From assembly GCF_034676705.1 (NCBI RefSeq), contig NZ_JAUCBS010000006.1:84960-148959 (forward strand): 64,000 bases of DNA, read 5' to 3'. Positions 13,954 to 31,852 of the stretch are shown here, in pieces. This DNA comes from Gemmobacter sp. (lineage in GTDB: Bacteria > Pseudomonadota > Alphaproteobacteria > Rhodobacterales > Rhodobacteraceae). Numbering within the stretch: the first letter of the stretch is position 1; each line of letters opens with the position of its first letter. The position numbers were made by a program, and so were the translations under genes. A model generated the notes under the pieces. It did no database searches, was not told where the DNA came from, and worked only from the letters and a program-made list of their open reading frames with translations.

Positions 13954-13998
13954 TTGACAGCCTGGCGGGCGCCCTCATATTGTTAGTCTGCAAACGAT
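13954..13998 (+). promoter_or_regulatory. Predicted hnr promoter (TTGACA-N16-CATATT) overlapped by shared operator copy 1, ATTGTTAGTCTGCAAACGAT (13979..13998)
   Basis: TTGACA lies at 13954..13959. The 20-bp imperfect palindrome recurs at 18811..18830 and 20733..20752, with 14 of 20 positions invariant. Confidence 0.5.
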
Positions 13999-14057
13999 AT
14001 CAGCCGCCCGTTCGCGCGGTCTGCCGTTCCCCGCCGCCTCAGCAGAGAGAATGGAAC

Positions 14058-15566
14058 ATGTCCCAGCCGACAGCCGAAGCCAGGGTCAAGCCGGACAAGA
14101 TTCGCTGCGATGCCTGCCCGGTGCTGTGCTACATCGCCGAAGGCCGCAGCGGGGCCTGCGACCGTTACGCCAACCATGACGGCAACCTGATCCGGGTCGA
14201 TGCGCTGACCATCCTGCAACAGGCCGGGCCGCAGGCCGAGGCGGTGCCCTTTCTGGCCAAGGGCGATCCGGCCGACTGGGACGGCGACATCCTGGCGGCG
14301 ACGAACCCGCAGCGCTTTGTCACCGCCGTGGGCGCCGGCACCACCTACCCCGATTACAAGCCCGCCCCCTTCATCGTCAGCCAGCAGGTGGACGGGGTGG
14401 ATATGGTCACGGTCGTGACCGAGGGGATCTTCAGTTATTGCGGCGTCAAGGTAAAGATCGACACCGACCGCCACATCGGTGACGAACGCGCGGTCGTGCG
14501 GGTGGATGGCGAGCCGATCGGGCATGTCATGACCTCGGAATACGGGTCCAAGATGCTGTCGCTGGGCGGGGTCGAACATCTGACCGGCGGCAGCAAGAAG
14601 GAAGGCCGCGTCACCTGCGATGCGCTGCTGCACCTGTGCAACGGGCAGGCGGTGGAAATGACCGTCGACGACGGCGCGGTCATCGTGGTGCAGGCGGGCA
14701 AGGCGCCGATCATCGACGGCACGCCCGAACGGCTGATGCGGGTGGGCTGCGGATCGGCCACCATCGGCATCTTTGCCGCGCAATGGGCGCCGCTGGTGGA
14801 CGAGGTGGTGGTGGTGGACGACCATATCACCGGCGTCCTGTCGGAGCATCAGGCCGGCAAGATGCTGGACATGCTGCCCACCGGGATCCGCATCAAGGGC
14901 CGCAAATCCACGCCCGGGCGCTATTTCCAGGTGGCCAAACCCGGCACCGGCTGGGGCGGCACCGATATCAGCGATCCGCTGTCCATTCTGGGCGCGTTCG
15001 ATGCCAGACATGCCCGCGCGGGGCTGACGCTGCTGATGGTGTCCACCACGGGCGAACACTACGCCTATTTCGTGCTGGATGCCGATCTGGTGCCGCAACC
15101 GCAGCCGATGCCCCCGGCGCTGCTGGCTGCCGTGAACCGGGTGGCGGAAAACTGCGAACCCTCGCTGTGTTCGGTGCTGTTCATGGGCGGCGCCGGCGGG
15201 TCGCTGCGGGCGGGGGTCACGCAGAACCCGGTGCGGCTGACCAATTCGGTCAAGCAGGCGCTGACCTATGTCACCTGCGGCGGGGCCGAGGCCTATGTCT
15301 GGCCGGGCGGCGGCATCACGGTGATGGTGGATGTCATGAAAATGCCCAGCGGATCCTTTGGTTATGTGCCCACGCCGGCGCTGGTCGCGCCCATCGAATT
15401 CACCCTGCGGGTCAGCGATTATATCGAACTGGGCGGCCATGCCGACCGGATCCGCCCCCTGGCCGAGGTGCTGGCCAGCCAGTCCAACCTGCGCGAGCTG
15501 GGCCGGATAGATCCGCAGACCGACCCGCTGGCAGACCGGAACTACGCATGGCATTCGCCGCGCTGA
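14058..15566 (+). CDS. 6-hydroxynicotinate-reductase-like Fe-S (flavo)protein (Hnr family)
   Basis: ATG at 14058 is in frame within ORF 13728..15566 and follows AGAGAGAATGGAAC. N-terminal cysteine cluster is KIRCDACPVLCYIAEGRSGACDRYANHDGNLIRVD, as I recall it from proteobacterial proteins annotated as 6-hydroxynicotinate reductase. Linked to an enamidase-like gene. Confidence 0.65.
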   Translation: MSQPTAEARVKPDKIRCDACPVLCYIAEGRSGACDRYANHDGNLIRVDALTILQQAGPQAEAVPFLAKGDPADWDGDILAATNPQRFVTAVGAGTTYPDYKPAPFIVSQQVDGVDMVTVVTEGIFSYCGVKVKIDTDRHIGDERAVVRVDGEPIGHVMTSEYGSKMLSLGGVEHLTGGSKKEGRVTCDALLHLCNGQAVEMTVDDGAVIVVQAGKAPIIDGTPERLMRVGCGSATIGIFAAQWAPLVDEVVVVDDHITGVLSEHQAGKMLDMLPTGIRIKGRKSTPGRYFQVAKPGTGWGGTDISDPLSILGAFDARHARAGLTLLMVSTTGEHYAYFVLDADLVPQPQPMPPALLAAVNRVAENCEPSLCSVLFMGGAGGSLRAGVTQNPVRLTNSVKQALTYVTCGGAEAYVWPGGGITVMVDVMKMPSGSFGYVPTPALVAPIEFTLRVSDYIELGGHADRIRPLAEVLASQSNLRELGRIDPQTDPLADRNYAWHSPR

Positions 15567-16399
15567 TCGACGGGGGGCGGCGGCTGCACCTGCAACACGG
15601 GCCGATCGACCTGCTGATTTCCGCCGAAGGGCCGGGCGATGCGCGGGTGGCGGCCTTTCGGGCGGCGACGGTGCGGTTCGACGGCTTGCTGGGCGAACTG
15701 GTCGCCGAACTGCCCCTGCTGCGCGCGCCGGTCACGGCGGGGTCGCGGGTGCCCACGGGCCCGGTGGCGCGGCGGATGCATGCGGCCTGCCTGCCCCACG
15801 GCCTGCACGATTTCATCACGCCGATGGCCGCCGTCGCCGGTGCGGTGGCCGACGAGATTGCAGATGCCATGCGCGCCAGTGCCGATCTGACCCGGCTGGT
15901 GGTGAACAATGGCGGCGACATCGCCTTTGACGCGGCGCCGGGGCAGCAGATGCAGGCGCTGATCGCCACGCCAGAGGGCCGGGTGCTGGGGCAGGTCAGC
16001 CTGCCGGGGGGCGGTCCGGTGCGCGGCATGGCCACCAGCGGGCGCGGCGGGCGCAGTTTCTCGTTGGGCATCGCCGACAGCGTGACGGTGCTGGCCGAAA
16101 CCGCCGCCATGGCCGATGCCGCCGCCACGATGATCGGGAATGCGGTGGATCTGCCGGGCCATCCCGCGATCCGCCGCACCCCGGCGCAGGATCTGGCGCC
16201 CGACAGCGACCTGGGCGCGCGGCTGGTGGTGACCGGGCTGGGCGCCTTGAATGCCACGGAAACCGCCACCGCGCTGGAACGGGGGCTGGACCGGGCGCAG
16301 CACTTGCAGCGCGGCGGGCTGATCGTGGCCGCCGCGCTGTATCTTGGCGCCGACCACCGGGTGACCGGCGGCTGGCCGGGGCAACTGGGCCGCAGTTAA
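15548..16399 (+). CDS. UPF0280 family protein (ApbE-like fold)
   Basis: ATG at 15548 lies within ORF 14636..16399 and overlaps the hnr-like 3' end by 19 nt. N-terminus MAFAALIDGGRRLHLQHGPIDLLISAEG is typical of UPF0280 as I recall it. Confidence 0.6.
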   Translation: MAFAALIDGGRRLHLQHGPIDLLISAEGPGDARVAAFRAATVRFDGLLGELVAELPLLRAPVTAGSRVPTGPVARRMHAACLPHGLHDFITPMAAVAGAVADEIADAMRASADLTRLVVNNGGDIAFDAAPGQQMQALIATPEGRVLGQVSLPGGGPVRGMATSGRGGRSFSLGIADSVTVLAETAAMADAAATMIGNAVDLPGHPAIRRTPAQDLAPDSDLGARLVVTGLGALNATETATALERGLDRAQHLQRGGLIVAAALYLGADHRVTGGWPGQLGRS

Positions 16400-16980
16400 C
16401 GCAGCCCGTCCACGCCCTTGGCGTCCTTCGCCTCCAGCCCGCCGACGCGGGGGTGCGGGCGGCCGCTGTCGGTCACCGCAATCGCCACCACGATTTCATC
16501 GGGGCGCGGCGCATCGTTGAACCGGATCTCGACCCCGTCGAAGTGCGAGCGGACAAAGGCCGCATCCTTGTGGCCCAGCGGAATATCCAGATCCTGCCCC
16601 ATGCCGCCCCGCTTTTTCGACGAGGGCACAAGGGCCGCGCCCTTTTCCACCGCCTTGCGCAAAGGCGCGCCCATGCGGGGATGCAGCAGGGCGGCGGCAT
16701 GTTCCAACTCGCCATTCTCGCCGACCAGCGCGGCCTTGCCATAGCTTTCGATCTGGTGGGGCCGCACCCCCAGCGCATCGCGGGCGCGGGCGCCCAGCAG
16801 GGCGCCCAGTTCCTCGCCCATGGCCATCAGCGGTTCCAGATCCTCGGCAAACTGGCCGGCGAATGGGTTCTGGATCACCGCTGCCGCCACCGCCTTGCGG
16901 GTGGGGGGCATAACGGGACGGCCGCCTTCGACATGCACTTCCTCGACCCAGACGCCGATCTTGCGGATGCGCGCGGTCAT
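16396..16980 (-). CDS. 'Amino acid synthesis' family protein (DUF1185), copy B
   Basis: 194 aa. Blocks VIQNPFAGQFAEDL, HPRMGAPLR and SHFDGVEI. Paralogous to the adjacent ORF. Confidence 0.7.
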   Translation of the reverse strand: MTARIRKIGVWVEEVHVEGGRPVMPPTRKAVAAAVIQNPFAGQFAEDLEPLMAMGEELGALLGARARDALGVRPHQIESYGKAALVGENGELEHAAALLHPRMGAPLRKAVEKGAALVPSSKKRGGMGQDLDIPLGHKDAAFVRSHFDGVEIRFNDAPRPDEIVVAIAVTDSGRPHPRVGGLEAKDAKGVDGLR

Positions 16981-17558
16981 CTTAGCCCATCCTCGCCCTT
17001 GATCGCCGACGCAGCCAGCCCGCCGGACCGGGCATGGATGCGCGGGCCGGTGGTCATGACCAGCGCCAGCAGGATTTCATCGGCGCGCGGACTGTCGTTG
17101 GTGCCCACCTCCATCGCGTCGAAATGGCTGCGCACGTAGGAGGCGTTGATATGGGTGATCGGCACATCCAGCCGCGCCCCTGCCCCGCCCACCTTCTTGG
17201 CCGATGGCACGATGGCCCTGGCATCGCCCAGCACGCCGCGCATGGCATAGCCGCCGGGGGCATGCCACAGCGCGCCGTGTTCCAGCTCGCCTGCCGCGCC
17301 GATCAGCGCGCCCTTGCCATAGCCTTCGATCCGCGCCGCCCCGCCAAGCGCCGCGACCAGCTGGCGCGCCATGTCCAGGCCCAGCGGCTCCAGATCGGCC
17401 ATGAAGCCCTGGATATCCTCGACATAGCGCCCGGCGAAGGGGTTGGTGATCACGGCCAGCGCGGCGCCGCGCATCAGCGGGGTGGCGGCCGGCGCGCCGC
17501 CTTCGTGAAAGATTTCCTCGGTCACGAGGATGCGTTTTCTGACGTTCAGCAAGCTCAT
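16977..17558 (-). CDS. 'Amino acid synthesis' family protein (DUF1185), copy A
   Basis: 193 aa. Blocks VITNPFAGRYVEDI and SHFDAMEV. GGAGAG RBS. Stop overlaps the start of copy B (ATGA). Confidence 0.7.
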   Translation of the reverse strand: MSLLNVRKRILVTEEIFHEGGAPAATPLMRGAALAVITNPFAGRYVEDIQGFMADLEPLGLDMARQLVAALGGAARIEGYGKGALIGAAGELEHGALWHAPGGYAMRGVLGDARAIVPSAKKVGGAGARLDVPITHINASYVRSHFDAMEVGTNDSPRADEILLALVMTTGPRIHARSGGLAASAIKGEDGLR

Positions 17559-17575: not shown

Positions 17576-18784
17576 TCAGTGATGCGGGGTGACGATCTCG
17601 GGCATGCGCTGCGATGGCGGGGTGTTGCGGCTGCGCCGGCTGCGCACGACGCCGTCGATCACCGTCATGCAGACGCCCGGCAGGTTGCCCTGTTCGACCG
17701 AGGCCAGCAGCGTCTTGCCTGGCGCATGCTGGGCCTGATCCATCAGCACGAAATCGGCGGCATAACCCTTTTCCAGCAGGCCCGCATCAAGGCCCCGCTG
17801 CCGCGCCGTATTGCCATTGGCAAAGCAGAAGGCCAGTTCCGCCGGCACGTTACCAAGGCTGGACAGCATGGCCACCATCCGCAGGATGCCCAGCGGCTGC
17901 ACCCCCGACCCGGCCGGGCCATCGGTGCCCAGGATGATGCGGTCCATCTGCTTGAGTTCGCGCGCGGTGTTCAGCGTCAGCAGCGCGGCGCGTTCGTTGC
18001 CGTTGTGAACGATCTCCAGCCCGGCCTGACAGCCTTCGCAGATGCAGATGATCTGGTCGTCGGGCAAGGCGGTGTGGCCGCCGTTGATATGGCCGACCAC
18101 ATCGGTTCCCGCCTCCAGCACCACGGCGGCGTCGATCAGGCCGGATCCGGGGATCGACGGGCCGCCGGTATGGATGGTGGACTGGATGCCGTATTTGCGG
18201 GCCCATTCCACCATCCTGCGCGCGGTCGGGCCATCCTTGACGCCGCCCAGACCGACCTCGCCCAGCAGGGTGACGCCGGCGGCGGCCAGGTCCTTGAAAT
18301 CCTGCTCGACCATCTCGGTCTCGATCACCGGGGCGCCGGCATGCACCTTGACGCCCGAGGGGCGGAAGTTCTGATACCAGCGCTGCGCCGCGATGGCCTG
18401 CGCCTTGAGCCCGACGATATCGCGCGCCCGGCCGGGCGTATGCACCTCGCCCGCCGAGATCATCGTGGTGACGCCGCCGTGCAGGGTCGAATCGATCCAG
18501 TTCAGCTGGCTTTGGCGGGGGGTGTAATCGCCCACCACCGGGTGGACATGGCTGTCGATCAGCCCGGGCGCCACCGTCACGCCCTTGGCGTCGATCAGCA
18601 GTTCGGCCCCGTCGCAATCCAGATCCTTTTCGTAGCCATAGGCCACGATGCGGCCCCCGATGGCCACGATGCAGTCGCCGTCCGCGATCGGGGCCTCGAT
18701 CTTGCCGGTCAGCAGCAGTCCGATGTTGCGGATCACCATCTTGCTGTCGGGGCCCGGAACGCCCCCCTGGGCTTCCTCTGCCAT
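17576..18784 (-). CDS. Enamidase-like amidohydrolase (Ena family, metal-dependent cyclic amidohydrolase)
   Basis: 402-aa ORF. An alternative start is at M16 (18739). Blocks VAPGLIDSHVHPVVGDYTPRQ, LHGGVTTMISAGEVH, HTGGPSIPGS, HINGG and C-terminal SRNTPPSQR closely match my memory of Eubacterium barkeri enamidase. Confidence 0.75.
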   Translation of the reverse strand: MAEEAQGGVPGPDSKMVIRNIGLLLTGKIEAPIADGDCIVAIGGRIVAYGYEKDLDCDGAELLIDAKGVTVAPGLIDSHVHPVVGDYTPRQSQLNWIDSTLHGGVTTMISAGEVHTPGRARDIVGLKAQAIAAQRWYQNFRPSGVKVHAGAPVIETEMVEQDFKDLAAAGVTLLGEVGLGGVKDGPTARRMVEWARKYGIQSTIHTGGPSIPGSGLIDAAVVLEAGTDVVGHINGGHTALPDDQIICICEGCQAGLEIVHNGNERAALLTLNTARELKQMDRIILGTDGPAGSGVQPLGILRMVAMLSSLGNVPAELAFCFANGNTARQRGLDAGLLEKGYAADFVLMDQAQHAPGKTLLASVEQGNLPGVCMTVIDGVVRSRRSRNTPPSQRMPEIVTPHH

Positions 18785-18810: not shown

Positions 18811-18830
18811 ATCGTTAGTATGCAGACGAT
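18811..18830. promoter_or_regulatory. Shared operator copy 2, ATCGTTAGTATGCAGACGAT, in the divergent ena/marR control region
   Basis: Lies 26 nt upstream of the ena start codon and 110 nt upstream of marR. Overlaps candidate -10 elements on both strands: CAATAT at 18807..18812 (+), and CATACT inside the site (-). Confidence 0.5.
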
Positions 18831-18939: not shown

Positions 18940-19368
18940 ATGAGTGCCGACACCCCCAAGGACTATGTTCTGGACAGCCAGATCGGCTTTCTTCTGCGGC
19001 AGGCAACCCAGCGCAATTCGCAGATCTTTCAGCGGCATACGTTCGACGACCTGACCACGACCCAGTTTTCCGCGCTGTTCCGGCTGGTGACGATGGGCGA
19101 ATGTTCCCAGAACGAACTGGGCCGGCGCACCGCCATGGACGTGGCCACCATCAAGGGCGTCGTCGACCGGCTGCGCAAGAAGGGTTACATCGCCACGCGC
19201 GAGGACGAGAACGACCGCCGCCGCACCCTGCTGTGCATCGCCCCCGGGCACGAGGGGCTGCGCGAACGGCTGTCCGATCTGGGCACCAGGGTGACCAACG
19301 AAACGCTGGGCACGCTGAACGCCGCGGATCGCCGGCAGCTGCTGGACCTGCTGGGCAAGATCATCTGA
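18940..19368 (+). CDS. MarR family transcriptional regulator
   Basis: ATG at 18940 lies within ORF 18820..19368 and follows GGGAGAGAGAG. Winged HTH is QFSALFRLVTMGECSQNELGRRTAMDVATIKGVVDRLRKKGYIATREDENDRRR. Confidence 0.88.
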   Translation: MSADTPKDYVLDSQIGFLLRQATQRNSQIFQRHTFDDLTTTQFSALFRLVTMGECSQNELGRRTAMDVATIKGVVDRLRKKGYIATREDENDRRRTLLCIAPGHEGLRERLSDLGTRVTNETLGTLNAADRRQLLDLLGKII

Positions 19369-19449: not shown

Positions 19450-19779
19450 ATGACCTATGTCGTGACCGATGCCTGCGTGAACTGCAAATATACCGATTGC
19501 GTCGAGGTTTGCCCGGTGGATTGCTTTTACGAAGGCGCCAACATGCTGGCGATCCACCCGGACGAATGCATCGACTGCGGCGTCTGCGAACCGGAATGCC
19601 CGGTCGATGCGATCCGCCCGGATACCGAGGTGGCAGACAGCCCCTGGCTGGCGCTGAACGCCCGCATGGCCGCGATCTGGCCCAACCTGAACACCCGCAA
19701 GGATCCGATGCCCGCGCATGACCATTGGGCCGGCGTGGCCGACAAGATCGCGCTGGTTTGCGAAACCGCCCCTTCCTGA
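19450..19779 (+). CDS. fdxA: 7Fe ferredoxin ([3Fe-4S][4Fe-4S], Azotobacter/Rhodobacter FdII type)
   Basis: [28 protein letters not shown]...[20 protein letters not shown]. Confidence 0.93.
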
Positions 19780-19818
19780 CCCTGCCGCGCCACAGGCGCG
19801 CCCAGCCGGACATCCGCC

Positions 19819-20631
19819 ATGACCGATACCATCCTTCAGCCTGCGACCTATCCCATCCCTGCCAACTGCTTTGCGCAGACCGTGACCGAGGTGCAGCACC
19901 ATACCGACCGGCTGTTCCGGTTCCGCATCACCCGGCCATCCAGTTTCCGGTTCCGGTCGGGGGAATTCGTGATGATCGGCCTGCCCAATGCCGAACGCCC
20001 CGTCATGCGGGCCTATTCCATCGCCTCGTCGGCATGGGAGGAGACGATCGAGTTCTATTCGATCAAGGTTCCCGGCGGCCCGCTGACCGAAAGCCTGCAA
20101 CGCATCCGCGAAGGCGATACCGTGCTGATGCGCAAGAAGCCTACGGGCACGCTGGTGCTGGACGCGCTGTTGCCGGGCAAGCGGCTGTGGATGTTTTCCA
20201 CCGGCACCGGGATTGCCCCCTTCGCCTCGTTGATCCGCGAGTTCGAGACCTATGAGAAATTCGGTCAGGTGATCCTGACCCACACCTGCCGCGACGTGGC
20301 CGAACTGGCCTATGGCGAGGCGTTGATGGCCGGGATCCGCGCCGATGACACCCTGTCCGAGATGGTCGGCGACAAGCTGCGGTTGTACAACACCGTCACC
20401 CGCGACGCCGCATTTCCCCGTCAGGGCCGCATCACCGATCTGATGACAGGCGGCCGGATCTTTGCCGATCTGGGGGTGCCCCCGATCACGCCCGAAACCG
20501 ACCGCGGCATGATCTGCGGGTCGATGGCGATGCTGCGTGACACCAAGGCGGTGCTGGAGAGATTCGGCCTGACCGAGGGCGCGAACAGCAGCCCCGGAAC
20601 CTTTGTCGTTGAACGCGCCTTTGTGGACTGA
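19819..20631 (+). CDS. fpr: Ferredoxin--NADP(+) reductase, bacterial subclass I (Fpr)
   Basis: Blocks FRFRSGEFVMIGL, RAYSIAS, GTGIAPFASL and the C-terminus FVVERAFVD. Confidence 0.9.
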   Translation: MTDTILQPATYPIPANCFAQTVTEVQHHTDRLFRFRITRPSSFRFRSGEFVMIGLPNAERPVMRAYSIASSAWEETIEFYSIKVPGGPLTESLQRIREGDTVLMRKKPTGTLVLDALLPGKRLWMFSTGTGIAPFASLIREFETYEKFGQVILTHTCRDVAELAYGEALMAGIRADDTLSEMVGDKLRLYNTVTRDAAFPRQGRITDLMTGGRIFADLGVPPITPETDRGMICGSMAMLRDTKAVLERFGLTEGANSSPGTFVVERAFVD

Positions 20632-20705: not shown

Positions 20706-20752
20706 TTGACAGGCAGAATCATCCATGCGTTAATCGTTAGAATGCAAACAAA
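20706..20752 (+). promoter_or_regulatory. Predicted promoter of the 11-kb operon (TTGACA-N17-GTTAAT) overlapped by shared operator copy 3, ATCGTTAGAATGCAAACAAA (20733..20752)
   Basis: TTGACA at 20706..20711 and GTTAAT at 20729..20734. The operator begins inside the -10 element, the same geometry as at hnr. Confidence 0.5.

Positions 20753-24105: not shown

Positions 24106-24109
<4 letters not shown>
23207..24109 (+). CDS. Amino-acid ABC transporter permease (HisM/GlnP type)
   Basis: ATG at 23207 lies within ORF 23156..24109 and follows AAGGGA. EAA loop is EASKALGHKPRQTFFVVVLPQA. Confidence 0.85.
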
Positions 24110-24933
<824 letters not shown>

Positions 24934-24960: not shown

Positions 24961-26265
24961 ATGCAGAAAATGATGCATCTGGGCTCGCTGTCGCATGGCG
25001 TGGGCGCCCATGTTGCCGGCTGGCGGCTGCCGGGGGCCGAAACGCACAAGGAACGGCTGTCTGTCGTCGTCCATGCGGTAAAGACGGCGGAACGCGGCAA
25101 GTTCGACCTGGTGTTCTTTGCCGATGCCGTCAACACCGGCGCCGATGCCGCGCCCAGCTTCGTGGTGCGGTTCGAACCCCTGACCCTGCTGGGCGCGCTG
25201 TCGGCGCTGACCGACCGGATCGGGCTGGTTGCCACCGTATCGACCACCTATTCCGAACCCTACAACGTGGCGCGGGCGCTGGCCTCGCTGGATCATCTGT
25301 CGCAGGGGCGGGTGGGCTGGAACGTCGTCACCGGATCCAGCCCCGATGCCGCTGCCAACTTTTCCCGCGACAAGCACCCGCCGCATGACGAACGCTATGC
25401 CCAGGCCGAGGAATACCTTCAGGTTGCCAAGGGCCTGTGGGACAGCTGGGAAGATGGCGCCGTGGTGGCCGACAAGAACAGCGGCGTCTACATCGACCCC
25501 GGCAAGATGCACGAGCTGAACCATTCGGGCCGGTTCTTCAAGGTGAAAGGCCCGCTGAACGCCAGCCGCCCGCCGCAGGGCTACCCGGTGATCTTTCAGG
25601 CCGGGGCATCGGATCGCGGCATGGAATTTGCCGGCGCCACCGCCGAGGTGGTGTTCGCCACCCAGTCGTTCGTCGAGGATGCGCTGGAGTTTTCCCGCAA
25701 GCTGCGCGACCAGGCCGAGGCGGCGGGGCGCCCGCGCGATGCCCTGCGCATCCTGCTGGGGGTGTCGCCCATCATCGGCGACACCGAGGAAGAGGCCCAT
25801 GCCATCATCGCCCGGCTGGGCGAGATGGTGGATCCGGTCACCTCGATGCGGGTGCTGTCGGACCGGATCGGCACCGACCTTGGCCAGTTCGACCTGGACG
25901 GCCCGCTGCCCGACCTGCCGCCCTCGACCATGATGCAGGGCCATGCCCGGGTGCTGCAAGCCATCGCCAAACGGCGCAACATGACCATCCGGCAGTTGCG
26001 CGATTATGCGGCGGTCAGTTCCGGCCACCGGGTGGTGGTCGGCACGCCGGTGCAGGTGGCCGACGATCTGGAACACTGGTTCCGCAGCGGCGCCTGCGAC
26101 GGCTTTGCCATCATGGCGCCCTACATGCCGCAACCGTTCGAGGATTTCGTCGACAAGGTCGTGCCGATCCTTCAGGACCGCGGGCTGTTCCGCAAGGAAT
26201 ACGCCGGCACCACCCTGCGCGACCATCTGGGGCTGGACCGGCCCGCCCATCCGGCTGCGGTCTGA
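24961..26265 (+). CDS. LLM-class flavin-dependent monooxygenase, NtaA/SnaA/DszA/SoxA family (copy 2)
   Basis: 434 aa. Blocks MHLGSLSHGVGAHVAGWRLP, VGWNVVTGS, RYAQAEEYLQ and FRKEYAGTTLRDHL. Confidence 0.85.
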   Translation: MQKMMHLGSLSHGVGAHVAGWRLPGAETHKERLSVVVHAVKTAERGKFDLVFFADAVNTGADAAPSFVVRFEPLTLLGALSALTDRIGLVATVSTTYSEPYNVARALASLDHLSQGRVGWNVVTGSSPDAAANFSRDKHPPHDERYAQAEEYLQVAKGLWDSWEDGAVVADKNSGVYIDPGKMHELNHSGRFFKVKGPLNASRPPQGYPVIFQAGASDRGMEFAGATAEVVFATQSFVEDALEFSRKLRDQAEAAGRPRDALRILLGVSPIIGDTEEEAHAIIARLGEMVDPVTSMRVLSDRIGTDLGQFDLDGPLPDLPPSTMMQGHARVLQAIAKRRNMTIRQLRDYAAVSSGHRVVVGTPVQVADDLEHWFRSGACDGFAIMAPYMPQPFEDFVDKVVPILQDRGLFRKEYAGTTLRDHLGLDRPAHPAAV

Positions 26266-26267
26266 TC

Positions 26268-27383
26268 ATGGCCATGGTGATGCAGGCGGTGCTGCTGACC
26301 GGCCATGGCGGGCCCGAGATGCTGCACTACCGCCAGGACGTGCCCCGCCCCACCGCCGGACCGGGCGAGGTGCTGGTGCGCCTGCGGGCGGCGGCGGTGA
26401 ACAACACCGACATCGCCACGCGCACCGCCTGGTATGCCCCCGCGCCGACCGATGGCGCGGATCAGGCCGATGCGCCCCGCATCGTCACCTTCAGCAAGCG
26501 CACGATCGACTTTCCCCGCATCCAGGGGGCAGGCGGCGCGGGGGTGATCGCGGCCGTGGGCCCCGGCGTGCCGGGCGACCGGGTGGGCCAGGTGGTGGTC
26601 GTCGATCCCTACCTGCGCGACCCTGCGCTGCCGCCTCCGGCGCAGCTGTCGGTCTTCATGGGCAGCGGCTGCGATGGCTGTTTTGCCGATTATGTCACGG
26701 TCCGGGCCGAAAATGCGCTGGCCATCCGCGCGCCGATGACCTTTGCCGAACTGGCCTGCCTGCCCGTCGCCTACCAGACCGCGCAGGAAATGGTCACGCG
26801 GGGCCGCATCGGCCCGGGCGACCGGGTGGTGGTCACTGGTGCATCGGGTGGGGTGGGGTTCGCCAACCTGCAACTGGCCAGGCTGCGCGGGGCCTCGGTT
26901 CTGGCCGTGGCCGGCGCCGACAAGCACGCCGCGCTGCGCGATCTGGGCGCCGATCAGGTGATCGGCCGCGATGCCGATGTGTCGGCGGCGGCCGAGGCGC
27001 TGTGGGGCGAACGCCCGGTGGATGTGGTGCTGGACGTGGCCGGCGGCCCGGCCTTTGGCAACCTGCTGCACAGCCTGCGGCGCGGCGGGCGGCTGGTCTG
27101 CGCCGGGGCCATCGCGGGCGCCATGGCCGACATCGACCTGCGCGTCGTCATCTACCGCGATCTGGAGATCCTGGGCGTTGGCACCTCGCAGCCGCAGGTG
27201 ATGCAGGCGCTGCTGGATCAGGCGGAAACCGGCAAGCTGCACCCGGTGATCAGCCATGTCCTGCCGCTGTCCGATCTGGCCAAGGCGCAGGCGCTGTTCC
27301 AGGCGAAATCCCATGTCGGCAAGATCGTGATCGACATTCACCGCGCGGCCGACACCGCCCTGCCCCAGCCCCTGGAAGGATGA
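26268..27383 (+). CDS. MDR-superfamily NAD(P)H-dependent oxidoreductase (quinone oxidoreductase / Zn-ADH-like)
   Basis: ATG at 26268 lies within ORF 25437..27383, 3 nt after the upstream stop. Blocks GEVLVRLRAAAVNNTD, VVVTGASGGVG and GKIVI. Confidence 0.8.
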   Translation: MAMVMQAVLLTGHGGPEMLHYRQDVPRPTAGPGEVLVRLRAAAVNNTDIATRTAWYAPAPTDGADQADAPRIVTFSKRTIDFPRIQGAGGAGVIAAVGPGVPGDRVGQVVVVDPYLRDPALPPPAQLSVFMGSGCDGCFADYVTVRAENALAIRAPMTFAELACLPVAYQTAQEMVTRGRIGPGDRVVVTGASGGVGFANLQLARLRGASVLAVAGADKHAALRDLGADQVIGRDADVSAAAEALWGERPVDVVLDVAGGPAFGNLLHSLRRGGRLVCAGAIAGAMADIDLRVVIYRDLEILGVGTSQPQVMQALLDQAETGKLHPVISHVLPLSDLAKAQALFQAKSHVGKIVIDIHRAADTALPQPLEG

Positions 27384-27929: not shown

Positions 27930-28424
27930 ATGGCAGATCAGGTCGCGTTCACGCTGAACGGTCGCGCGGTTGCCATACCGGCCGCCGGGACGCGCGCCCT
28001 GCTGGATGTGCTGCGCGGCGACTTTGGCCTGCATGGCCCGAAATACGGCTGCGGCCTGGCACAATGCGGCGCCTGCATGGTGCTGGTCGATGGCCAGCCC
28101 GCCCGCGCCTGCGTGCTGCGCACCGGCCGGGTTGCCGGCCGCCATGTCACCACGCTGGAGGGGCTGGCCGATCCGGCGACGGGCCGGCTGCACCCGGTCC
28201 AGCAGGGGTTCGTCCAGGCCGAGGGCGCGCAATGCGGCTATTGCCTGAACGGCATGGTGATGACCGCCGTCGCCCTGCTGGCCCGCGACCCTGACCCCGA
28301 CGACGACCGCATCCGCGCCGCATTGCGCCACAACCTGTGCCGCTGCGGCACCCATCAGGAGATCATCGCCTCGGTCCGCCGGGCGGCGGTGCTGTTGGCC
28401 GAACAGCGGGCGGCAGCGCCATGA
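27930..28424 (+). CDS. (2Fe-2S)-binding small subunit of a molybdenum hydroxylase (NicA/IorA-like)
   Basis: ATG at 27930 lies within ORF 27687..28424. Blocks GCGLAQCGACMV and QCGYCLNGMVM...CRCGTH. Confidence 0.88.
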   Translation: MADQVAFTLNGRAVAIPAAGTRALLDVLRGDFGLHGPKYGCGLAQCGACMVLVDGQPARACVLRTGRVAGRHVTTLEGLADPATGRLHPVQQGFVQAEGAQCGYCLNGMVMTAVALLARDPDPDDDRIRAALRHNLCRCGTHQEIIASVRRAAVLLAEQRAAAP

Positions 28425-31400
28425 CCGGGGCATCCGCCGGCCATCTGACGATCTATGAGGATCGCCCCGCCGGCCGCGCGACCCATCTGCGCATCGGGGT
28501 CGATGGCTGTGCCACCGGCTTCAGCGGCCATGTCGATCTGGGCACCGGGATAGAAACCGCGCTGGCCCAGATCGTGGCCGAGGAACTGGATCTGCCGCTG
28601 GCCGCCGTGCGGATGGTGCTGGGCGATACGGCGCTGACCCACGATCAGGGGCCGACCATCGCGTCGGAAACCATCCAGATCACCGCCGTTCCGCTGCGGA
28701 TTGCCGCGGCTCAGGCCCGGCTGGTGCTGCGCGACGCCGCTGCGCGGCGGCTGAACGTCGCCCTGGCCGACATCCGCAGCGACGATGGCCTGTTCCATGG
28801 CCCGCAAGGCAGCGTGGCCATTGCCGATCTGCTGGCAGGCCAGCTGCTGGACGTGGCGCTGGACACCGCCACGCCGACCAAGCCGGTGGCCGATTACCGC
28901 ATCGTCGGTCAGCGGACCGGCCGGCGCGATCTGGCCGACAAGGTGACTGGCGCCTTCAGCTTTGTCCACGATGTGACCGTGCCGGGCATGCTGCATGGCC
29001 ATGTCATCCGCCCGCCTTATGCCGGGCGCGACAGCGGGCCGTTCATCGGCACCAGTTTGATCGGTTGGGACGAAAGTTCCGTCGCGCATCTGCCCGGTCT
29101 GGTTGCCATCGTGCGCGAGGCGGATTTTCTGGGCATCGTGGCCACCAGCGCCGAGGCGGCCCGCCAGATCGCCGAAACCCTGCGCGTCGACTGGCACCTG
29201 CCGCCGGACCTGCCGGACATGGCCGACCTGTCCGGCACGCTGCGCAACCATCCCAGCACGCCCCGCGCGCTGGACCGCAGCGGCGACTTTGCCCGCGGCA
29301 TGGCCGAAAGCGCGCGCACCCTGGCCCGAACCTATGTCTGGCCCTATCATGAACATGGCTCCATCGGGCCATCCTGCGCCATTGCCGACTGGGCGGGCGG
29401 CCGTCCCGTGGTCTGGAGCGGCAGCCAGAACCCCCATATGCTGCAAGGCGATCTGGCGCTGCTGATGGGGCTGGAGCCTGCGGCCGTGGAAATCCGGCGG
29501 TTGCAGGCCGCCGGCTGCTATGGCCGCAACTGCGCCGATGATGTCTGCGGCGATGCGCTGCTGCTGTCGCGGGCGGTGGGGCGGCCAGTGCGGGTGCAGC
29601 TGACGCGGGCGCAGGAACATCTGTGGGAACCCAAAGGGGCCGCGCAGCTGATGGATGTGCAGGGCGGGCTAAGCGCGGCAGGCGATCTGCACGCCTATGC
29701 GCTGGACACCTGGTATCCGTCGAACCGGGGGCCCAATCTGGCGCTGCTGCTGACCGGGCGGGTGCCGGCCGACCCCCGGCCGTCCGACATGGGCGACCGC
29801 ACCTCGGTTCCGCCTTACCGGGTGCCGCACAAGCGCATCACCGTGCATGACATGGCCCCCATCGTGCGCGCGGCCTGGATGCGCGGGGTTTCGGCCCTGC
29901 CCAACACCTTTGCGCATGAAAGTTTCATCGACGAACTGGCGTGGGAGGCGCGCGAGGATCCGGTCGCCTTTCGCCTGCGCCATCTGGACGATCCGCGGCA
30001 GGCCGATCTGGTCCGCCGCACGGCCGAGGCCGGCGGCTGGCAGGGCCGCACCGGCCCCCGGCTGCGGCGCGAAGGGCGGATGGCCTATGGCCAGGGGTTT
30101 GCCTTTGCCACCTATGTGCATGGCACCTTTCCGGGCGTGGCCGCCGCCTCGGCCGCATGGGTCTGCGATGTCTCGGTGGATCTGGAAACCGGCGAGGTGC
30201 TGCTGAACCGCGTGTTGGTCGGGCAGGATCAGGGGCTGGTGATCAACCCCGATGGCGTGCGCCAGCAGATCCATGGCAACGTGATCCAGACCGCCAGCCG
30301 CGCCCTGCTGGAACAGGTGACGTTCGATGCCATCACGCCCACGCCGCGCAGCTGGGCCACCTATCCCATCCAGACCTTCGCGCAGGTGCCGCGCATCGAC
30401 ACGCTGCTGGTGGAACGACCGGGCGACCCACCCTTGGGCGTGGGGGAAAGTGCGGCGGTGCCGGCGGCGGCGGCCATCGCCAATGCCATCTTCGACGCCA
30501 CCGGCGTGCGCATGCGCGAGGCGCCGTTTACCCCCGAACGGATGCGCGCCGCCTTTGTTGCCGCCGGGATTGCGCCGGAACCCAGGCCCCCGCTGGCCCT
30601 GCCGGCGCCGGGCGTGGCAGGCTGGCGGCGGCATCTGTCGCCGGGCCGGCTGCTCGGGCTGGCCGGTGCCGTCACGCTGGGCACGCTGGCCTTGCCGCTG
30701 CACCGCGCCTTTCCGCCCACGCCCGCCCCCCCAGCCGCCACCTTTGCGCCCGAGGTGATCGAACGCGGGCGCCAGCTGTTTTCGGCAGGCGACTGCGCGG
30801 TGTGCCATACCAATCCGGGCGGCCTGCCCAATGCCGGCGGGCGGCCGATCGAAACCCCGTTCGGCACCGTCTATTCCACCAACCTGACGCCCGATCCCGA
30901 CACCGGCCTTGGCCTGTGGTCCTATGAGGCGTTCAGCCGCGCCATGCGGCAGGGCATCAGCCGCGACGGGCACAACCTCTATCCGGCCTTTCCCTATACC
31001 GCCTTTGCCGGATTGGCCGAGGCCGACATGCTGGCGATCTATGCCTATGTCCAGACCTTGCCGGCGGTGCGCCAGCCCACCCCCGATGCGCAGATGCGCC
31101 CCGGGGCCAACATCCGGCTGGTCAATGCCGGCTGGAACCTGCTGTTCCACAAGACCGTGCCCGTGCAGGACGATCCCGGCCAGCCGGCCGACTGGAACCG
31201 GGGCCGCTATCTGGTGGAAACGGTGGGGCATTGCGGCGCCTGCCATACGCCTCGCAACCTGCTGGGGGCGGAAAAGGGCGGCGCGCTGGCCTATGCCGGG
31301 GCCGAGGTGCATGGCTGGTGGGCGCCCGCCCTTGGTGGTAGCGCGGCGCTGGCGCGGGGCTGGTCGCAGGACGGGTTCTACAGCTATCTGCGCGGCGGCC

Positions 31401-31852
31401 ATGCGCCGGGGCTGTCCACCGCCTCGGGCCCGATGGCCGAGGTGATCCACGGCCTTCAGGCCCTGCCCGACAGCGATATCCGCGCCATGTCGGCCTATCT
31501 GGCCACCCTGTCGCCGCCACAGGCCGTGGCGCCGGCCCCGGTTCCCGAACCTGCGCAGCTGGCGCCATCGGCCATGTCGCGGCTGTTCTCCTCGGCCTGC
31601 GGCAGTTGCCACGAACCCGCCTTTGCCGATGATTTCACCGCCGCGCTGCTGCCGCTGTCGCAGGCGCCGGCATTGCGGGCCCCCACGGCGGCCACCGTTC
31701 ACAGCGTGCTGCGCGACGGGCTGACCGCGCCGGCGGGCCTTGATCTGCGCGACATGCCCGCCTTCGGCGCCGAACTGGACGAACGGCAGATCGCCGATCT
31801 GGCCCGCTACCTGCGCCAGCGCTTTGCCCCCGACCTGCCGCCCTGGCCCTGA
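28421..31852 (+). CDS. Molybdopterin-binding large subunit fused to a tri-haem cytochrome c domain (NicB-like / IorB-cytochrome c fusion)
   Basis: ATG at 28421 overlaps the small-subunit stop (ATGA). 1143 aa. N-terminus is IorB-like (GTGIETALAQIVAEELD). The C-terminal third carries three CxxCH motifs: CAVCH, CGACH and CGSCH. Confidence 0.85.
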   Translation: MTGASAGHLTIYEDRPAGRATHLRIGVDGCATGFSGHVDLGTGIETALAQIVAEELDLPLAAVRMVLGDTALTHDQGPTIASETIQITAVPLRIAAAQARLVLRDAAARRLNVALADIRSDDGLFHGPQGSVAIADLLAGQLLDVALDTATPTKPVADYRIVGQRTGRRDLADKVTGAFSFVHDVTVPGMLHGHVIRPPYAGRDSGPFIGTSLIGWDESSVAHLPGLVAIVREADFLGIVATSAEAARQIAETLRVDWHLPPDLPDMADLSGTLRNHPSTPRALDRSGDFARGMAESARTLARTYVWPYHEHGSIGPSCAIADWAGGRPVVWSGSQNPHMLQGDLALLMGLEPAAVEIRRLQAAGCYGRNCADDVCGDALLLSRAVGRPVRVQLTRAQEHLWEPKGAAQLMDVQGGLSAAGDLHAYALDTWYPSNRGPNLALLLTGRVPADPRPSDMGDRTSVPPYRVPHKRITVHDMAPIVRAAWMRGVSALPNTFAHESFIDELAWEAREDPVAFRLRHLDDPRQADLVRRTAEAGGWQGRTGPRLRREGRMAYGQGFAFATYVHGTFPGVAAASAAWVCDVSVDLETGEVLLNRVLVGQDQGLVINPDGVRQQIHGNVIQTASRALLEQVTFDAITPTPRSWATYPIQTFAQVPRIDTLLVERPGDPPLGVGESAAVPAAAAIANAIFDATGVRMREAPFTPERMRAAFVAAGIAPEPRPPLALPAPGVAGWRRHLSPGRLLGLAGAVTLGTLALPLHRAFPPTPAPPAATFAPEVIERGRQLFSAGDCAVCHTNPGGLPNAGGRPIETPFGTVYSTNLTPDPDTGLGLWSYEAFSRAMRQGISRDGHNLYPAFPYTAFAGLAEADMLAIYAYVQTLPAVRQPTPDAQMRPGANIRLVNAGWNLLFHKTVPVQDDPGQPADWNRGRYLVETVGHCGACHTPRNLLGAEKGGALAYAGAEVHGWWAPALGGSAALARGWSQDGFYSYLRGGHAPGLSTASGPMAEVIHGLQALPDSDIRAMSAYLATLSPPQAVAPAPVPEPAQLAPSAMSRLFSSACGSCHEPAFADDFTAALLPLSQAPALRAPTAATVHSVLRDGLTAPAGLDLRDMPAFGAELDERQIADLARYLRQRFAPDLPPWP

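What the first reader, a model, noticed from the sequence alone, without database searches (positions are those of the whole stretch)
13954..31852. Putative single regulon joining an anaerobe-type reductive ring-opening module (Hnr/enamidase) to an aerobe-type NicAB-like hydroxylase
Seen in the sequence:
- an Hnr-like Fe-S protein (14058..15566)
- an enamidase-like amidohydrolase (17576..18784)
- a ferredoxin plus ferredoxin-NADP reductase pair (19450..20631)
- a NicA-like 2Fe-2S subunit with a NicB-like Moco subunit carrying three CxxCH haems (27930..31852)
- the same 20-bp operator at the three promoters

Established knowledge: in Eubacterium barkeri nicotinate fermentation, 6-hydroxynicotinate is reduced by the ferredoxin-dependent Hnr. 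The product, tetrahydro-6-oxonicotinate, is ring-opened by enamidase. In Pseudomonas putida KT2440, NicAB hydroxylates nicotinate at C6, and NicC/NicX then continue oxygenolytically.

Inference: this locus would combine the aerobic hydroxylase with the reductive, non-oxygenolytic ring opening. FdxA/Fpr could supply the low-potential electrons.

The window contains no NicX/NicD/NicE-like genes. It also contains no B12 mutase or dimethylmalate genes of the clostridial downstream route. The fate of the ring-opened product, and the true substrate, are therefore undefined. The substrate could be nicotinate or another N-heterocyclic carboxylate. As far as I know, Hnr/Ena-like clusters in Proteobacteria have been noticed but not characterised biochemically.
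Basis: partly seen in the sequence, partly recalled or inferred. Interest (0 to 1): 0.8.

Follow-up and report, generated by a model that had tools for sequence, protein, structure and literature searches.

The report
Aerobic nicotinate breakdown regulon, Azorhizobium type
This is a real, co-regulated gene cluster for breaking down nicotinate (vitamin B3) by hydroxylating, then reducing and hydrolysing the ring, but the route has been known in aerobic Azorhizobium since about 1990 and the same cluster is common in Alphaproteobacteria, so it is a well-annotated ordinary case with a few new details.

Summary

- The Hnr-like protein is 43% identical to Eubacterium barkeri 6-hydroxynicotinate reductase over 456 residues.
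- The amidohydrolase matches E. barkeri enamidase (PDB 2VUN) over its full length, E = 3e-99.
- FdxA, Fpr, NicA and NicB (Moco domain plus three CxxCH haems) are all there.
- The 20-bp operator occurs three times, against none expected by chance.
- A fourth, variant operator sits on the fdxA-fpr promoter, so the electron-supply genes belong to the same MarR-type regulon.

The "hybrid" is not new. The library's papers report the tetrahydro-6-oxonicotinate (THON) route in aerobic Azorhizobium caulinodans and a conserved proteobacterial hnr/ena cluster. More than 8000 homologues exist, many named 6-hydroxynicotinate reductase. Other alphaproteobacterial contigs carry the same set: hnr, apbE-like, two DUF1185 genes, fdxA, fpr, marR, ena and nicAB.

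Details I did not find described in the papers I could search:
- Alphaproteobacterial Hnr lacks the fused two-cluster ferredoxin domain that all 15 anaerobe homologues have, and is instead often linked to fdxA/fpr.
- An ApbE-like gene and DUF1185 genes are conserved from E. barkeri to this locus.
- A cassette of two luciferase-like monooxygenases (LLMs) plus an ABC transporter sits upstream of nicAB, behind the shared operator.

Verdict: new member of a known kind; modest interest.

The parts
13954..13998 (+). hnr promoter (-35 TTGACA at 13954-13959, -10 at about 13976-13983) with operator O1, ATTGTTAGTCTGCAAACGAT, at 13979-13998 overlapping the -10
14058..15566 (+). hnr: 6-hydroxynicotinate reductase homologue (502 aa). 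It has one CxxCxxxC...C motif and lacks the N-terminal 2x[4Fe-4S] domain of the E. barkeri enzyme
15548..16399 (+). ApbE-superfamily UPF0280 gene (283 aa). It overlaps the hnr 3' end by 19 nt. Probable flavin transferase or maturase for Hnr (inferred)
16396..16980 (-). DUF1185/AA_synth (PF06684) paralogue B, last gene of the ena operon
16977..17558 (-). DUF1185/AA_synth (PF06684) paralogue A
17576..18784 (-). ena: enamidase homologue (402 aa), inferred to open the THON ring hydrolytically
18811..18830 (.). operator O2, ATCGTTAGTATGCAGACGAT, in the ena/marR divergent region. It lies 26 nt upstream of the ena ATG and overlaps a candidate ena -10
18940..19368 (+). MarR-family regulator (142 aa), closest to 2NNN and to the 6-hydroxynicotinate-responsive BpsR (6PCP/6PCO). 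Presumed repressor of the four operators
   Evidence: PMC6837509
19388..19431 (+). fdxA promoter (-35 TTGACA at 19388-19393) with operator O3, TTCATTCGTATACGAATAAA, at 19412-19431. This is the top PWM hit in the window
19450..19779 (+). fdxA: proteobacterial FdxA-type ferredoxin (Fer4 plus DUF3470)
19819..20631 (+). fpr: ferredoxin-NADP(+) reductase-type flavoprotein
20707..20752 (+). promoter of the 9-gene operon (-35 TTGACA at 20707-20712) with operator O4, ATCGTTAGAATGCAAACAAA, at 20733-20752
20848..22164 (+). LLM1: NtaA/DmoA-family FMN-dependent monooxygenase (closest solved structure DszA)
22241..24933 (+). amino-acid-type ABC transporter: SBP_bac_3 binding protein 22241-23110, permease 23156-24109, ATPase about 24106-24933
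24961..26265 (+). LLM2: NtaA/DmoA-family FMN-dependent monooxygenase (closest solved structures YtnJ/MoxC and nitrilotriacetate monooxygenase)
26268..27383 (+). MDR (zinc-ADH/quinone-oxidoreductase type) reductase, 371 aa
27388..27924 (+). isochorismatase-family hydrolase, 178 aa; specificity unknown
27930..28424 (+). nicA-like small subunit with two [2Fe-2S] domains
28421..31852 (+). nicB-like large subunit: Moco domains fused to a tri-haem cytochrome c (CxxCH at nt 30794, 31232 and 31598)

Best explanation
This is an alphaproteobacterial, Azorhizobium-type aerobic nicotinate catabolic regulon.

Proposed steps:
- NicAB hydroxylates nicotinate at C6 and passes the electrons through its fused tri-haem cytochrome c to the respiratory chain. 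NicA has two [2Fe-2S] domains and NicB carries the Moco domain.
- Hnr reduces 6-hydroxynicotinate to 1,4,5,6-tetrahydro-6-oxonicotinate (THON).
- The electrons for Hnr come from NADPH via Fpr and the free ferredoxin FdxA. FdxA stands in for the two-cluster ferredoxin domain that anaerobe Hnr carries fused at its N-terminus.
- The translationally coupled ApbE-like protein probably installs Hnr's covalent flavin.
- Enamidase hydrolyses THON to 2-formylglutarate plus ammonia.
- The two DUF1185 proteins are conserved accessories of this step, with unknown chemistry.
- Further degradation (glutarate, then glutaryl-CoA) is encoded outside the window.

Regulation: one MarR-family repressor binds 20-bp palindromic operators that overlap the -10 regions of four promoters. 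These are hnr-apbE; ena-DUF1185-DUF1185; fdxA-fpr; and LLM1-ABC-LLM2-MDR-isochorismatase-nicAB. The repressor is probably released by 6-hydroxynicotinate or nicotinate.

Shown here: the homologies, domain architectures, operator sites and conserved synteny. Inferred: the substrates, the electron path, flavinylation, the inducer, and co-transcription of the 9-gene operon.
For: Homology to the characterised anaerobe enzymes:
- Hnr is 43% identical over 456 aa to E. barkeri Hnr.
- Ena matches 2VUN at E = 3e-99 over its full length.
- The E. barkeri nic locus also has the ApbE-like gene right after hnr and a DUF1185 gene right after ena.

NicB:
- Moco domains plus three CxxCH motifs.
- Its C-terminus matches the tri-haem cytochrome subunit of a membrane-bound aldehyde dehydrogenase, 8GY3_A, E = 2.6e-78.

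Conserved synteny:
- nicAB of this type lies next to hnr in L025, L028, L029, L031 and L032, at 49-72% (NicA) and 52-64% (NicB) identity.
- fdxA and/or fpr are linked to hnr/ena in L026, L028, L029, L030 and L032.
- All 15 anaerobe Hnr homologues carry an N-terminal domain with two CxxCxxCxxxC motifs and have no linked fdxA/fpr. All 8 alphaproteobacterial homologues lack that domain.

Operators:
- 3 matches against 0 expected by chance.
- A PWM built only from sites in other genomes ranks the four window sites at 26.8-28.9 bits. The next hit scores 8.7 and the best shuffle 18.2.
- The three + strand promoters have the same TTGACAG-to-operator geometry.

Regulator: the MarR is related to BpsR, the 6-hydroxynicotinate-sensing repressor of the Bordetella nic genes (PMC6837509).

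Literature: the THON route exists in aerobic A. caulinodans, and the proteobacterial cluster is conserved, with the first three steps, an ABC transporter and two unknown proteins (PMC3511419, PMC9304392).
Against: - No enzyme of the proteobacterial cluster has been assayed, to my knowledge, so the substrate is inferred from about 43% identity plus gene context.
- Only 2 of the 4 BpsR residues that contact 6-hydroxynicotinate are conserved in this MarR: Y and R are kept, while His23 is Phe and His32 is Asn.
- nicAB lies at the end of an 11-kb operon. The first five genes of that operon are a cassette whose closest solved relatives cleave C-S or C-N bonds (YtnJ/MoxC, DszA, NTA monooxygenase). 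That cassette also occurs outside nic loci (L033, L034).
- No glutarate-pathway genes are in the window.
- The covalent flavin of E. barkeri Hnr is recalled from Alhapel et al. 2006, not read here.
- The usual ApbE target motif was not looked for systematically.
Confidence: 0.8

Rival explanations
1. The chemistry is the same, but the substrate is different. The regulon would degrade another pyridine or N-heterocyclic carboxylate, or an imported conjugate or N-alkylated derivative that the LLM/ABC cassette, the MDR reductase and the isochorismatase-like hydrolase first convert. Nicotinate would then be only an intermediate, or not involved at all.
For: - The cassette, the MDR reductase and the hydrolase lie in one operon with nicAB behind the shared operator, with gaps of -4 to 76 bp between genes.
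- The same cassette is embedded in the nic cluster of Microvirga antarctica at a different position, between hnr and the apbE-like gene.
- Substrate specificity of Moco hydroxylases cannot be read from sequence.
Against: - The Hnr, Ena, ApbE-like and DUF1185 set is the one found in the E. barkeri nicotinate cluster.
- Most related loci (L025-L031) have the nic genes without the cassette.
- The cassette also occurs away from nic genes (L033, L034).
- In Microvirga the cassette keeps its own MarR and a different palindrome.
Confidence: 0.12
2. The LLM/ABC cassette is an unrelated, horizontally acquired organosulfur or aminocarboxylate scavenging module that happened to land upstream of nicAB. 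Its link to the nic regulon would then be an accident of insertion and carry no metabolic meaning. The nic part of the locus still works as in the best explanation.
For: - Cassette proteins are 61-85% identical to those of Microvirga, L033 and L034. NicA and NicB reach only about 49-52% identity to Microvirga.
- GC content dips to 0.625-0.635 at 20-24 kb, against about 0.70 in the flanks.
- The closest solved structures are YtnJ/MoxC and DszA.
- Some sources name homologues N-acetyl-S-(2-succino)cysteine monooxygenase.
Against: - The cassette promoter carries a well-scoring nic-type operator with the same -35 geometry as the hnr and fdxA promoters.
- The cassette's own MarR is absent from the window.
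- Two independent placements inside nic clusters, among the four contexts examined, are more than expected for an unrelated module. The sample is small.
Confidence: 0.3
3. The operator repeats are chance or merely promoter-associated sequence, and the genes are not a regulon.
For: No binding or expression data exist. All the sites are A+T-rich promoter regions within a genome of about 68% G+C.
Against: - 0 matches expected by chance, 3 found.
- The palindromic motif recurs upstream of hnr, ndh, fdxA, fpr and transporter genes in seven loci, five of them from distinct taxa (L028/L029 are the same scaffold sequence in two samples, and L031 yielded no site).
- A PWM built from those sites picks out exactly four window sites, far above background.
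- A MarR gene is encoded in the locus and in five of the eight related alphaproteobacterial loci (L025, L026, L028/L029, L031, L032).
Confidence: 0.03

Closest known systems
Azorhizobium caulinodans nicotinate catabolism, and the conserved proteobacterial hnr/ena cluster (Alhapel 2006; Shettigar 2012, PMC3511419)
   Same: - An aerobic alphaproteobacterium using nicotinate to 6-hydroxynicotinate to THON, then hydrolytic ring opening with release of ammonia.
- A cluster holding the first three steps together with two conserved unknown proteins, which here are the ApbE-like and DUF1185 genes.
- I recall that Kitts 1992 describes the Azorhizobium hydroxylase as membrane-bound and cytochrome c-linked. 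That fits the NicB fusion, but I could not read the paper.
   Different: - I could not retrieve the A. caulinodans sequences, so orthology to AZC_2790-2804 was not tested directly.
- This window lacks the glutarate-branch genes.
- It carries an LLM/ABC cassette, an MDR reductase and an isochorismatase-like hydrolase in the nicAB operon.
- The transporter type differs between loci: TRAP, branched-chain-type ABC, or amino-acid-type ABC.
Eubacterium barkeri nicotinate fermentation cluster (Hnr, enamidase 2VUN, NdhFSLM)
   Same: - Hnr 43% identical and Ena about 43-47% identical.
- The ApbE-like gene follows hnr and a DUF1185 gene follows ena in both organisms.
   Different: - E. barkeri Hnr has a fused N-terminal 2x[4Fe-4S] ferredoxin domain that is absent here.
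- Its hydroxylase is the four-subunit FAD-containing Ndh type, not NicAB.
- Its downstream route, through 2-(hydroxymethyl)glutarate and the B12 mutase, is absent here.
- It has one DUF1185 gene; this locus has two.
Pseudomonas putida KT2440 nic cluster (NicAB, NicR)
   Same: - A two-gene hydroxylase: a [2Fe-2S] subunit plus a Moco subunit fused to three c-type haem domains, with no FAD subunit.
- A MarR-family repressor controlling the nic genes.
   Different: - There are no nicC, nicX, nicD, nicE or nicF genes here.
- The ring is opened reductively and hydrolytically, not by oxygenases.
BpsR (Bordetella), a 6-hydroxynicotinate-responsive MarR repressor (PDB 6PCP/6PCO; PMC6837509)
   Same: A MarR fold, E = 9e-22 to the window regulator, in both cases a regulator associated with nic genes. 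Two of the ligand residues, Tyr15 and Arg26, are conserved.
   Different: His23 is Phe and His32 is Asn in the window protein, so the effector pocket is not the same. The best PDB match is actually 2NNN, a P. aeruginosa regulator of unknown effector.

Membership tests
6-hydroxynicotinate reductase (Hnr, EC 1.3.7.1) family | Near full-length sequence homology to the purified E. barkeri enzyme | tested here: met
   43% identity over 456 aa, E = 1e-107, against L001:1830-3329
6-hydroxynicotinate reductase (Hnr, EC 1.3.7.1) family | N-terminal 2x[4Fe-4S] ferredoxin domain, as in E. barkeri Hnr | tested here: not met
   Absent from the window protein and from all 8 alphaproteobacterial homologues; present in all 15 anaerobe homologues. 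A separate fdxA gene is linked instead.
6-hydroxynicotinate reductase (Hnr, EC 1.3.7.1) family | Conserved CxxCxxxC...C cluster motif in the core | tested here: met
   C17, C20, C24 and C34 align with the E. barkeri cysteines and are invariant in 53 homologues
6-hydroxynicotinate reductase (Hnr, EC 1.3.7.1) family | Covalently bound flavin and ferredoxin-dependent reduction of 6-hydroxynicotinate | not testable with these tools
   Only indirect support: a conserved, translationally coupled ApbE-superfamily gene and linked fdxA/fpr genes
Enamidase (amidohydrolase superfamily; 2VUN) | Full-length homology with conserved metal-site motifs (HxH, HTGG, HINGG, Asp) | tested here: met
   E = 3.3e-99 over residues 14-397 against 2-385, with no gaps and the motifs conserved
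NicAB-type nicotinate hydroxylase | A small subunit with two [2Fe-2S] domains, a large Moco subunit fused to three c-type haem domains, and no FAD subunit | tested here: met
   Fer2 plus Fer2_2; MoCoBD_1/2 plus Cytochrom_C; three CxxCH motifs; no FAD_binding_5 gene in the locus
NicAB-type nicotinate hydroxylase | Orthology to P. putida NicA/NicB, and nicotinate as the substrate | not tested
   The P. putida sequences were not obtainable here. Support is contextual: genes of the same type lie next to hnr/ena in L025, L028, L029, L031 and L032.
Proteobacterial THON-route nic cluster (Alhapel 2006; PMC3511419) | [quoted passage not shown] | tested here: met
   All are present, and the ApbE-like and DUF1185 genes fit the 'two conserved unknowns'. 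The cluster description is taken from PMC3511419.
MarR-type nic repressor (BpsR-like) | A winged-helix MarR protein with the 6-hydroxynicotinate-binding residues Tyr15, His23, Arg26 and His32 | tested here: inconclusive
   MarR domain present, E = 9e-22 to 6PCP. Only Tyr and Arg are conserved, with Phe and Asn at the two His positions (PMC6837509).
MarR-type nic repressor (BpsR-like) | Palindromic operators overlapping the target promoters | tested here: met
   Four sites at 26.8-28.9 bits, overlapping the -10 regions; the motif is conserved in seven related loci. Binding itself was not tested.
ApbE-like flavin transferase superfamily | Membership of the ApbE superfamily | tested here: met
   NF003322 at 344 bits, above the cut-off of 290. 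Homologues carry the precomputed Pfam PF27030 AbpE_bact, and some also PF02424 ApbE. JGI's name is 'ApbE superfamily ... UPF0280'. PDB 2O34 matches at E = 1e-10. Flavin-transferase activity on Hnr was not tested.

The most novel reading that the evidence does not exclude
The Hnr-type nic regulon has, at least twice independently (in this organism and in Microvirga antarctica), captured the same cassette of two LLM monooxygenases and an ABC transporter. Here the cassette's promoter has been rewired to the nic repressor's operator. This would point to an undescribed upstream funnel. In it, an imported N- or S-substituted compound, for example an N-alkylated pyridinium carboxylate or a nicotinate conjugate, would be oxidatively dealkylated and hydrolysed to nicotinate before NicAB acts. 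Alongside this, the aerobic Hnr would be a three-part system (a core enzyme flavinylated by an ApbE-like protein, a free FdxA, and Fpr) that evolved from the anaerobic enzyme by losing its fused ferredoxin domain.
Probability: 0.2. Interest if true: 0.6.

Novelty: new member of a known kind. Interest (0 to 1): 0.3.

Why it matters
The locus is a clean example of the reductive-hydrolytic nicotinate route working in an aerobe. That route is genetically mapped but still lacks enzyme-level biochemistry in Proteobacteria.

The comparative results give concrete, testable assignments for parts that annotations and the papers I could search still treat as unknown:
- FdxA and Fpr as the electron supply that replaces the ferredoxin domain fused to anaerobe Hnr.
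- The UPF0280/ApbE-like protein as the Hnr flavinylation factor.
- DUF1185 as an enamidase-linked accessory conserved from Firmicutes to Alphaproteobacteria.
- A conserved MarR operator that defines the regulon across genera.

Homologues number in the thousands and many of the closest come from marine Rhodobacteraceae, so the route may matter for vitamin B3 turnover in the sea. The basic discovery, an aerobic hydroxylase followed by reductive ring opening, is decades old, so the finding itself is not surprising to a specialist.

Tried and rejected
- AlphaFold2 model of Hnr from a 53-sequence alignment: mean pLDDT 55 and pTM 0.47. It was too poor for a fold search, so none was run. The alignment was shallow in diversity (71-91% identity).
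- PDB sequence search with Hnr found nothing at E <= 1.
- I tried to read Alhapel 2006, Kitts 1992 and Jimenez 2008. None is held. What I say about them comes from citing papers (PMC3511419, PMC9304392, PMC6837509) or from my own memory, and is marked as such.
- Literature searches for Hnr in Rhodobacteraceae, for a trigonelline/LLM link, for UPF0280, and for the covalent flavin of Hnr gave nothing useful.
- The ORF 26006-27418, used at first, had no family hit. The frame was wrong; the real gene is the MDR reductase at 26268-27383.
- The long in-frame extension 13728-14057 upstream of hnr was rejected as coding, because homologues start at the position equivalent to 14058.
- I asked whether the isochorismatase-like protein is a close relative of any solved cysteine hydrolase or amidase. 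Only weak hits came back (E about 1e-5 to 1e-3), so its specificity stays open.
- I asked whether the FAD monooxygenase at 44978-46591 could be NicC. It falls in the uncharacterised PRK07538 subfamily, has no nic operator nearby and lies about 13 kb away, so I did not count it as part of the locus.
- I could not identify the source organism. Identical FdxA proteins occur only on metagenome contigs.

Full report
**Gene map**

The window has about 68% G+C, so raw ORF lists are full of shadow frames. I called genes from third-position GC and checked them with Pfam and NCBIfam. The region 13.9-31.9 kb contains, in order:
- hnr (14058-15566, +)
- an ApbE-superfamily UPF0280 gene (15548-16399, +; it overlaps hnr by 19 nt)
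- two tandem DUF1185/AA_synth genes (16977-17558 and 16396-16980, -)
- ena (17576-18784, -)
- a MarR gene (18940-19368, +)
- fdxA (19450-19779, +) and fpr (19819-20631, +)
- a run of nine + strand genes with gaps of -4 to 76 bp: LLM1; an amino-acid-type ABC transporter (binding protein, permease, ATPase); LLM2; an MDR reductase (26268-27383); an isochorismatase-family hydrolase; nicA (27930-28424); and nicB (28421-31852)

panC follows convergently. Gene calls on metagenome contigs that carry the identical FdxA give the same gene lengths.

**Observation check**

Every item in the finding is there.
- Hnr has no Pfam, NCBIfam or PDB sequence match. It has more than 8000 homologues, many of which NCBI names 6-hydroxynicotinate reductase.
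- To compare directly with the characterised enzyme, I rebuilt the 2VUN enamidase sequence from the alignment and used it to fetch the E. barkeri VPI 5359 nic locus (L001).
- The window Hnr is 43% identical to E. barkeri Hnr over 456 residues, E = 1e-107.
- The window Ena matches 2VUN over its full length, E = 3.3e-99, with the metal-site motifs kept.
- NicA has the two [2Fe-2S] domains. NicB has the Moco domains and three CxxCH motifs.
- The C-terminal 400 residues of NicB match the tri-haem cytochrome subunit of a membrane-bound aldehyde dehydrogenase, 8GY3_A, E = 2.6e-78. Its N-terminal part matches the large subunit of the same complex. This fits electron delivery to the respiratory chain.
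- The 20-bp operator occurs exactly three times in 64 kb, with none expected by chance.

**A fourth operator**

Operator-like palindromes (roughly ATyGTTwGTATrCwAACrAT) lie upstream of hnr, the hydroxylase genes, fdxA, fpr and transporter genes in seven related loci: L025-L030 and L032. L028 and L029 are the same scaffold sequence from two samples, and L031 yielded no site.

I built a symmetrised PWM from 15 of those sites, using none from the window, and scanned the window.
- The four top hits were 19412-19431 (28.9 bits), 13979-13998 (27.2), 20733-20752 (27.1) and 18811-18830 (26.8).
- The fifth hit scored 8.7, and the best of 30 shuffles scored 18.2.

The new site is on the fdxA promoter. 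The hnr, fdxA and LLM1 promoters share one geometry: TTGACAG lies 24-26 nt upstream of the operator start, so the operator covers the -10 region and the transcription start. The ena site overlaps a candidate -10 on the minus strand.

One caveat: the foreign sites were themselves picked by similarity (at most 6 mismatches) to the window consensus. The fdxA site differs from that consensus at 8 of 20 positions, so it was recovered only through the cross-genome variation.

**Regulator**

The MarR protein is closest to 2NNN (E = 2e-27) and to BpsR (6PCP/6PCO, E = 9e-22). BpsR is the 6-hydroxynicotinate-responsive repressor of the Bordetella nic genes (PMC6837509). Of its four ligand-contacting residues, Tyr15 and Arg26 are conserved here. 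His23 and His32 are replaced by Phe and Asn. The effector is therefore plausible but not established.

**What it is**

- PMC3511419 states that the THON route, discovered in E. barkeri, was later reported in aerobic Azorhizobium caulinodans.
- The same paper says the hnr homologue lies in a cluster conserved across A. caulinodans ORS571, Bradyrhizobium japonicum, Rhodopseudomonas palustris and strain SG-6C.
- It says the Azorhizobium pathway continues via glutarate to TCA-cycle intermediates.
- SG-6C grows on nicotinate and 6-hydroxynicotinate.
- PMC9304392 gives the same summary. PMC2650096 mentions an insertion mutant in the Azorhizobium nicotinate hydroxylase gene and cites the 1991 paper that physically mapped the nicotinate catabolism genes.

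I could not read Kitts 1989/1992 or Alhapel 2006 themselves.

**Context in other genomes**

I examined eight alphaproteobacterial loci that encode Hnr homologues at 68-76% identity.
- All eight have hnr, the ApbE-like gene and two DUF1185 genes.
- Five have the NicAB type with the cytochrome c fusion: L025, L028, L029, L031 and L032.
- Three have an FAD-containing Ndh type: L026 Ruegeria arenilitoris, L027 Hoeflea and L030 Paracoccus.
- The Tara Oceans scaffold (L028/L029) carries the whole set seen here: hnr, apbE-like, DUF1185 x2, fdxA, fpr, marR, ena, nicA and nicB. It also has an acyl-CoA dehydrogenase, a CoA-transferase and a LysR regulator, which fit the glutarate branch.

So the window is one member of a populous class of loci. 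Its downstream genes are simply elsewhere in the genome; the rest of the window holds unrelated functions.

**Mechanistic details I did not find in the papers I could search**

(i) Ferredoxin domain.
- E. barkeri Hnr has an N-terminal domain of about 65 residues with two CxxCxxCxxxC motifs.
- All 15 anaerobe homologues in L001-L020 have this domain, and none has a linked fdxA or fpr.
- All eight alphaproteobacterial homologues and the window protein lack it. Five of the eight, and the window, have fdxA and/or fpr within 10 kb.
It also explains why they are needed: a free ferredoxin and an NADPH-dependent reductase replace the fused domain and the anaerobe's reduced-ferredoxin pool.

(ii) ApbE-like gene.
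- The gene after hnr is conserved from E. barkeri to here (33% identity) and belongs to the ApbE superfamily.
- From memory, Alhapel 2006 reported a covalently bound flavin in E. barkeri Hnr. A dedicated flavin transferase is therefore the obvious inference. It is untested.

(iii) DUF1185.
- A DUF1185 gene follows ena in E. barkeri (48% identity), and the alphaproteobacterial loci have two copies.
- Crystal structures exist (2QTP from Silicibacter pomeroyi, E = 1e-88 to the window protein; 3BYQ). The structure paper proposed amino-acid metabolism and did not mention the nicotinate context (PMC2954203).

**The cassette**

The unit LLM1, binding protein, permease, ATPase, LLM2 recurs intact at 61-85% identity in three places:
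- Microvirga antarctica (L032)
- an alphaproteobacterial metagenome contig (L033)
- Siccirubricoccus phaeus (L034)

In Microvirga it lies inside the nic cluster but at a different place, between hnr and the apbE-like gene. There it has its own MarR, a flavin reductase and a different palindrome, TTTGTTCGTCAACAAA. In L033 and L034 it is not next to nic genes.

In the window it has no MarR of its own, and its promoter carries the nic-type operator. The GC content dips to 0.625-0.635 across 20-24 kb.

The closest solved relatives are YtnJ/MoxC and nitrilotriacetate monooxygenase for LLM2, and DszA for LLM1. These are enzymes that cleave C-S or C-N bonds. Some sources name homologues N-acetyl-S-(2-succino)cysteine monooxygenase.

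I cannot decide between two readings: a funnel into nicotinate, or an unrelated acquired module that now rides on the nic promoter. The MDR reductase and the isochorismatase-like hydrolase between the cassette and nicA had no counterparts in the other loci, and they have only weak characterised relatives.

**Verdict**

- The functional interpretation is right in substance.
- The claim to novelty is not: the pathway and the cluster type are in the literature and in routine annotation.
- I rate it a new member of a known kind, with modest interest. That interest comes from the comparative inferences on FdxA/Fpr, the ApbE-like gene, DUF1185 and the operator, and from the unexplained cassette.

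Noticed in passing
window 13651-13691: A 16-bp palindrome, ATCTGATGTATCAGAT (13651-13666), lies just downstream of a minus-strand promoter-like site (TTGACA at 13691-13686). That site faces the divergent SsuA/TauC-like ABC transporter operon (10930-13557). The palindrome may be the operator of the adjacent GntR-family regulator (10209-10922). No nic-type operator lies there, so this transporter seems to be outside the nic regulon.
   Followed up: partly
window 20000-24000: G+C falls to 0.625-0.635, against about 0.70 in the flanks, exactly over the first part of the LLM/ABC cassette. The cassette proteins are also more similar to those of distant genera (61-85%) than the neighbouring NicA and NicB are. 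Both points suggest horizontal acquisition.
   Followed up: partly
L032 (Microvirga antarctica) 3553-21317: The same LLM/ABC cassette, with its own MarR and a flavin reductase, is inserted between hnr and the apbE-like gene. This breaks a gene pair that is otherwise contiguous in every other locus examined. The cassette promoter there has a different palindrome, TTTGTTCGTCAACAAA.
   Followed up: partly
L026, L027, L030 versus L025, L028, L031, L032: Alphaproteobacterial Hnr clusters come with two alternative hydroxylases. One is an FAD subunit plus a fused 916-aa FeS/Moco protein (Ndh type). The other is NicAB with the cytochrome c fusion.
   Followed up: partly
window 14058-15566: The Hnr family has thousands of members but no Pfam or NCBIfam model and no solved structure. 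AlphaFold2 with a shallow alignment gave only pLDDT 55.
   Followed up: yes
window 44978-46591 (-), 46096-47166 (+): An FAD-dependent aromatic-type monooxygenase (PRK07538 subfamily, 583 bits) lies next to a TRAP transporter (41785-44804) and a serine-recombinase/resolvase gene. It is not called NicC and has no nic operator.
   Followed up: partly
window 51142-58545 (-): Hydantoinase B and A (oxoprolinase-type) genes, a cupin, an IclR regulator and a TRAP transporter. This may be a separate lactam or cyclic-amide utilisation cluster.
   Followed up: no
window 35655-41001: A haem-uptake set: a TonB-dependent receptor, a HemS/ChuX haem-degrading protein and a FecCD permease.
   Followed up: no
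window 58540-63187: An RTX-repeat protein with a serralysin-type C-terminal domain, followed by a Crp-family regulator and a CHASE2-adenylate/guanylate cyclase.
   Followed up: no
window 47188-50349 (-): An NMT1/THI5-like binding protein, an ABC ATPase, a permease and a YkoF-family protein. This looks like a thiamine-precursor-type uptake operon.
   Followed up: no
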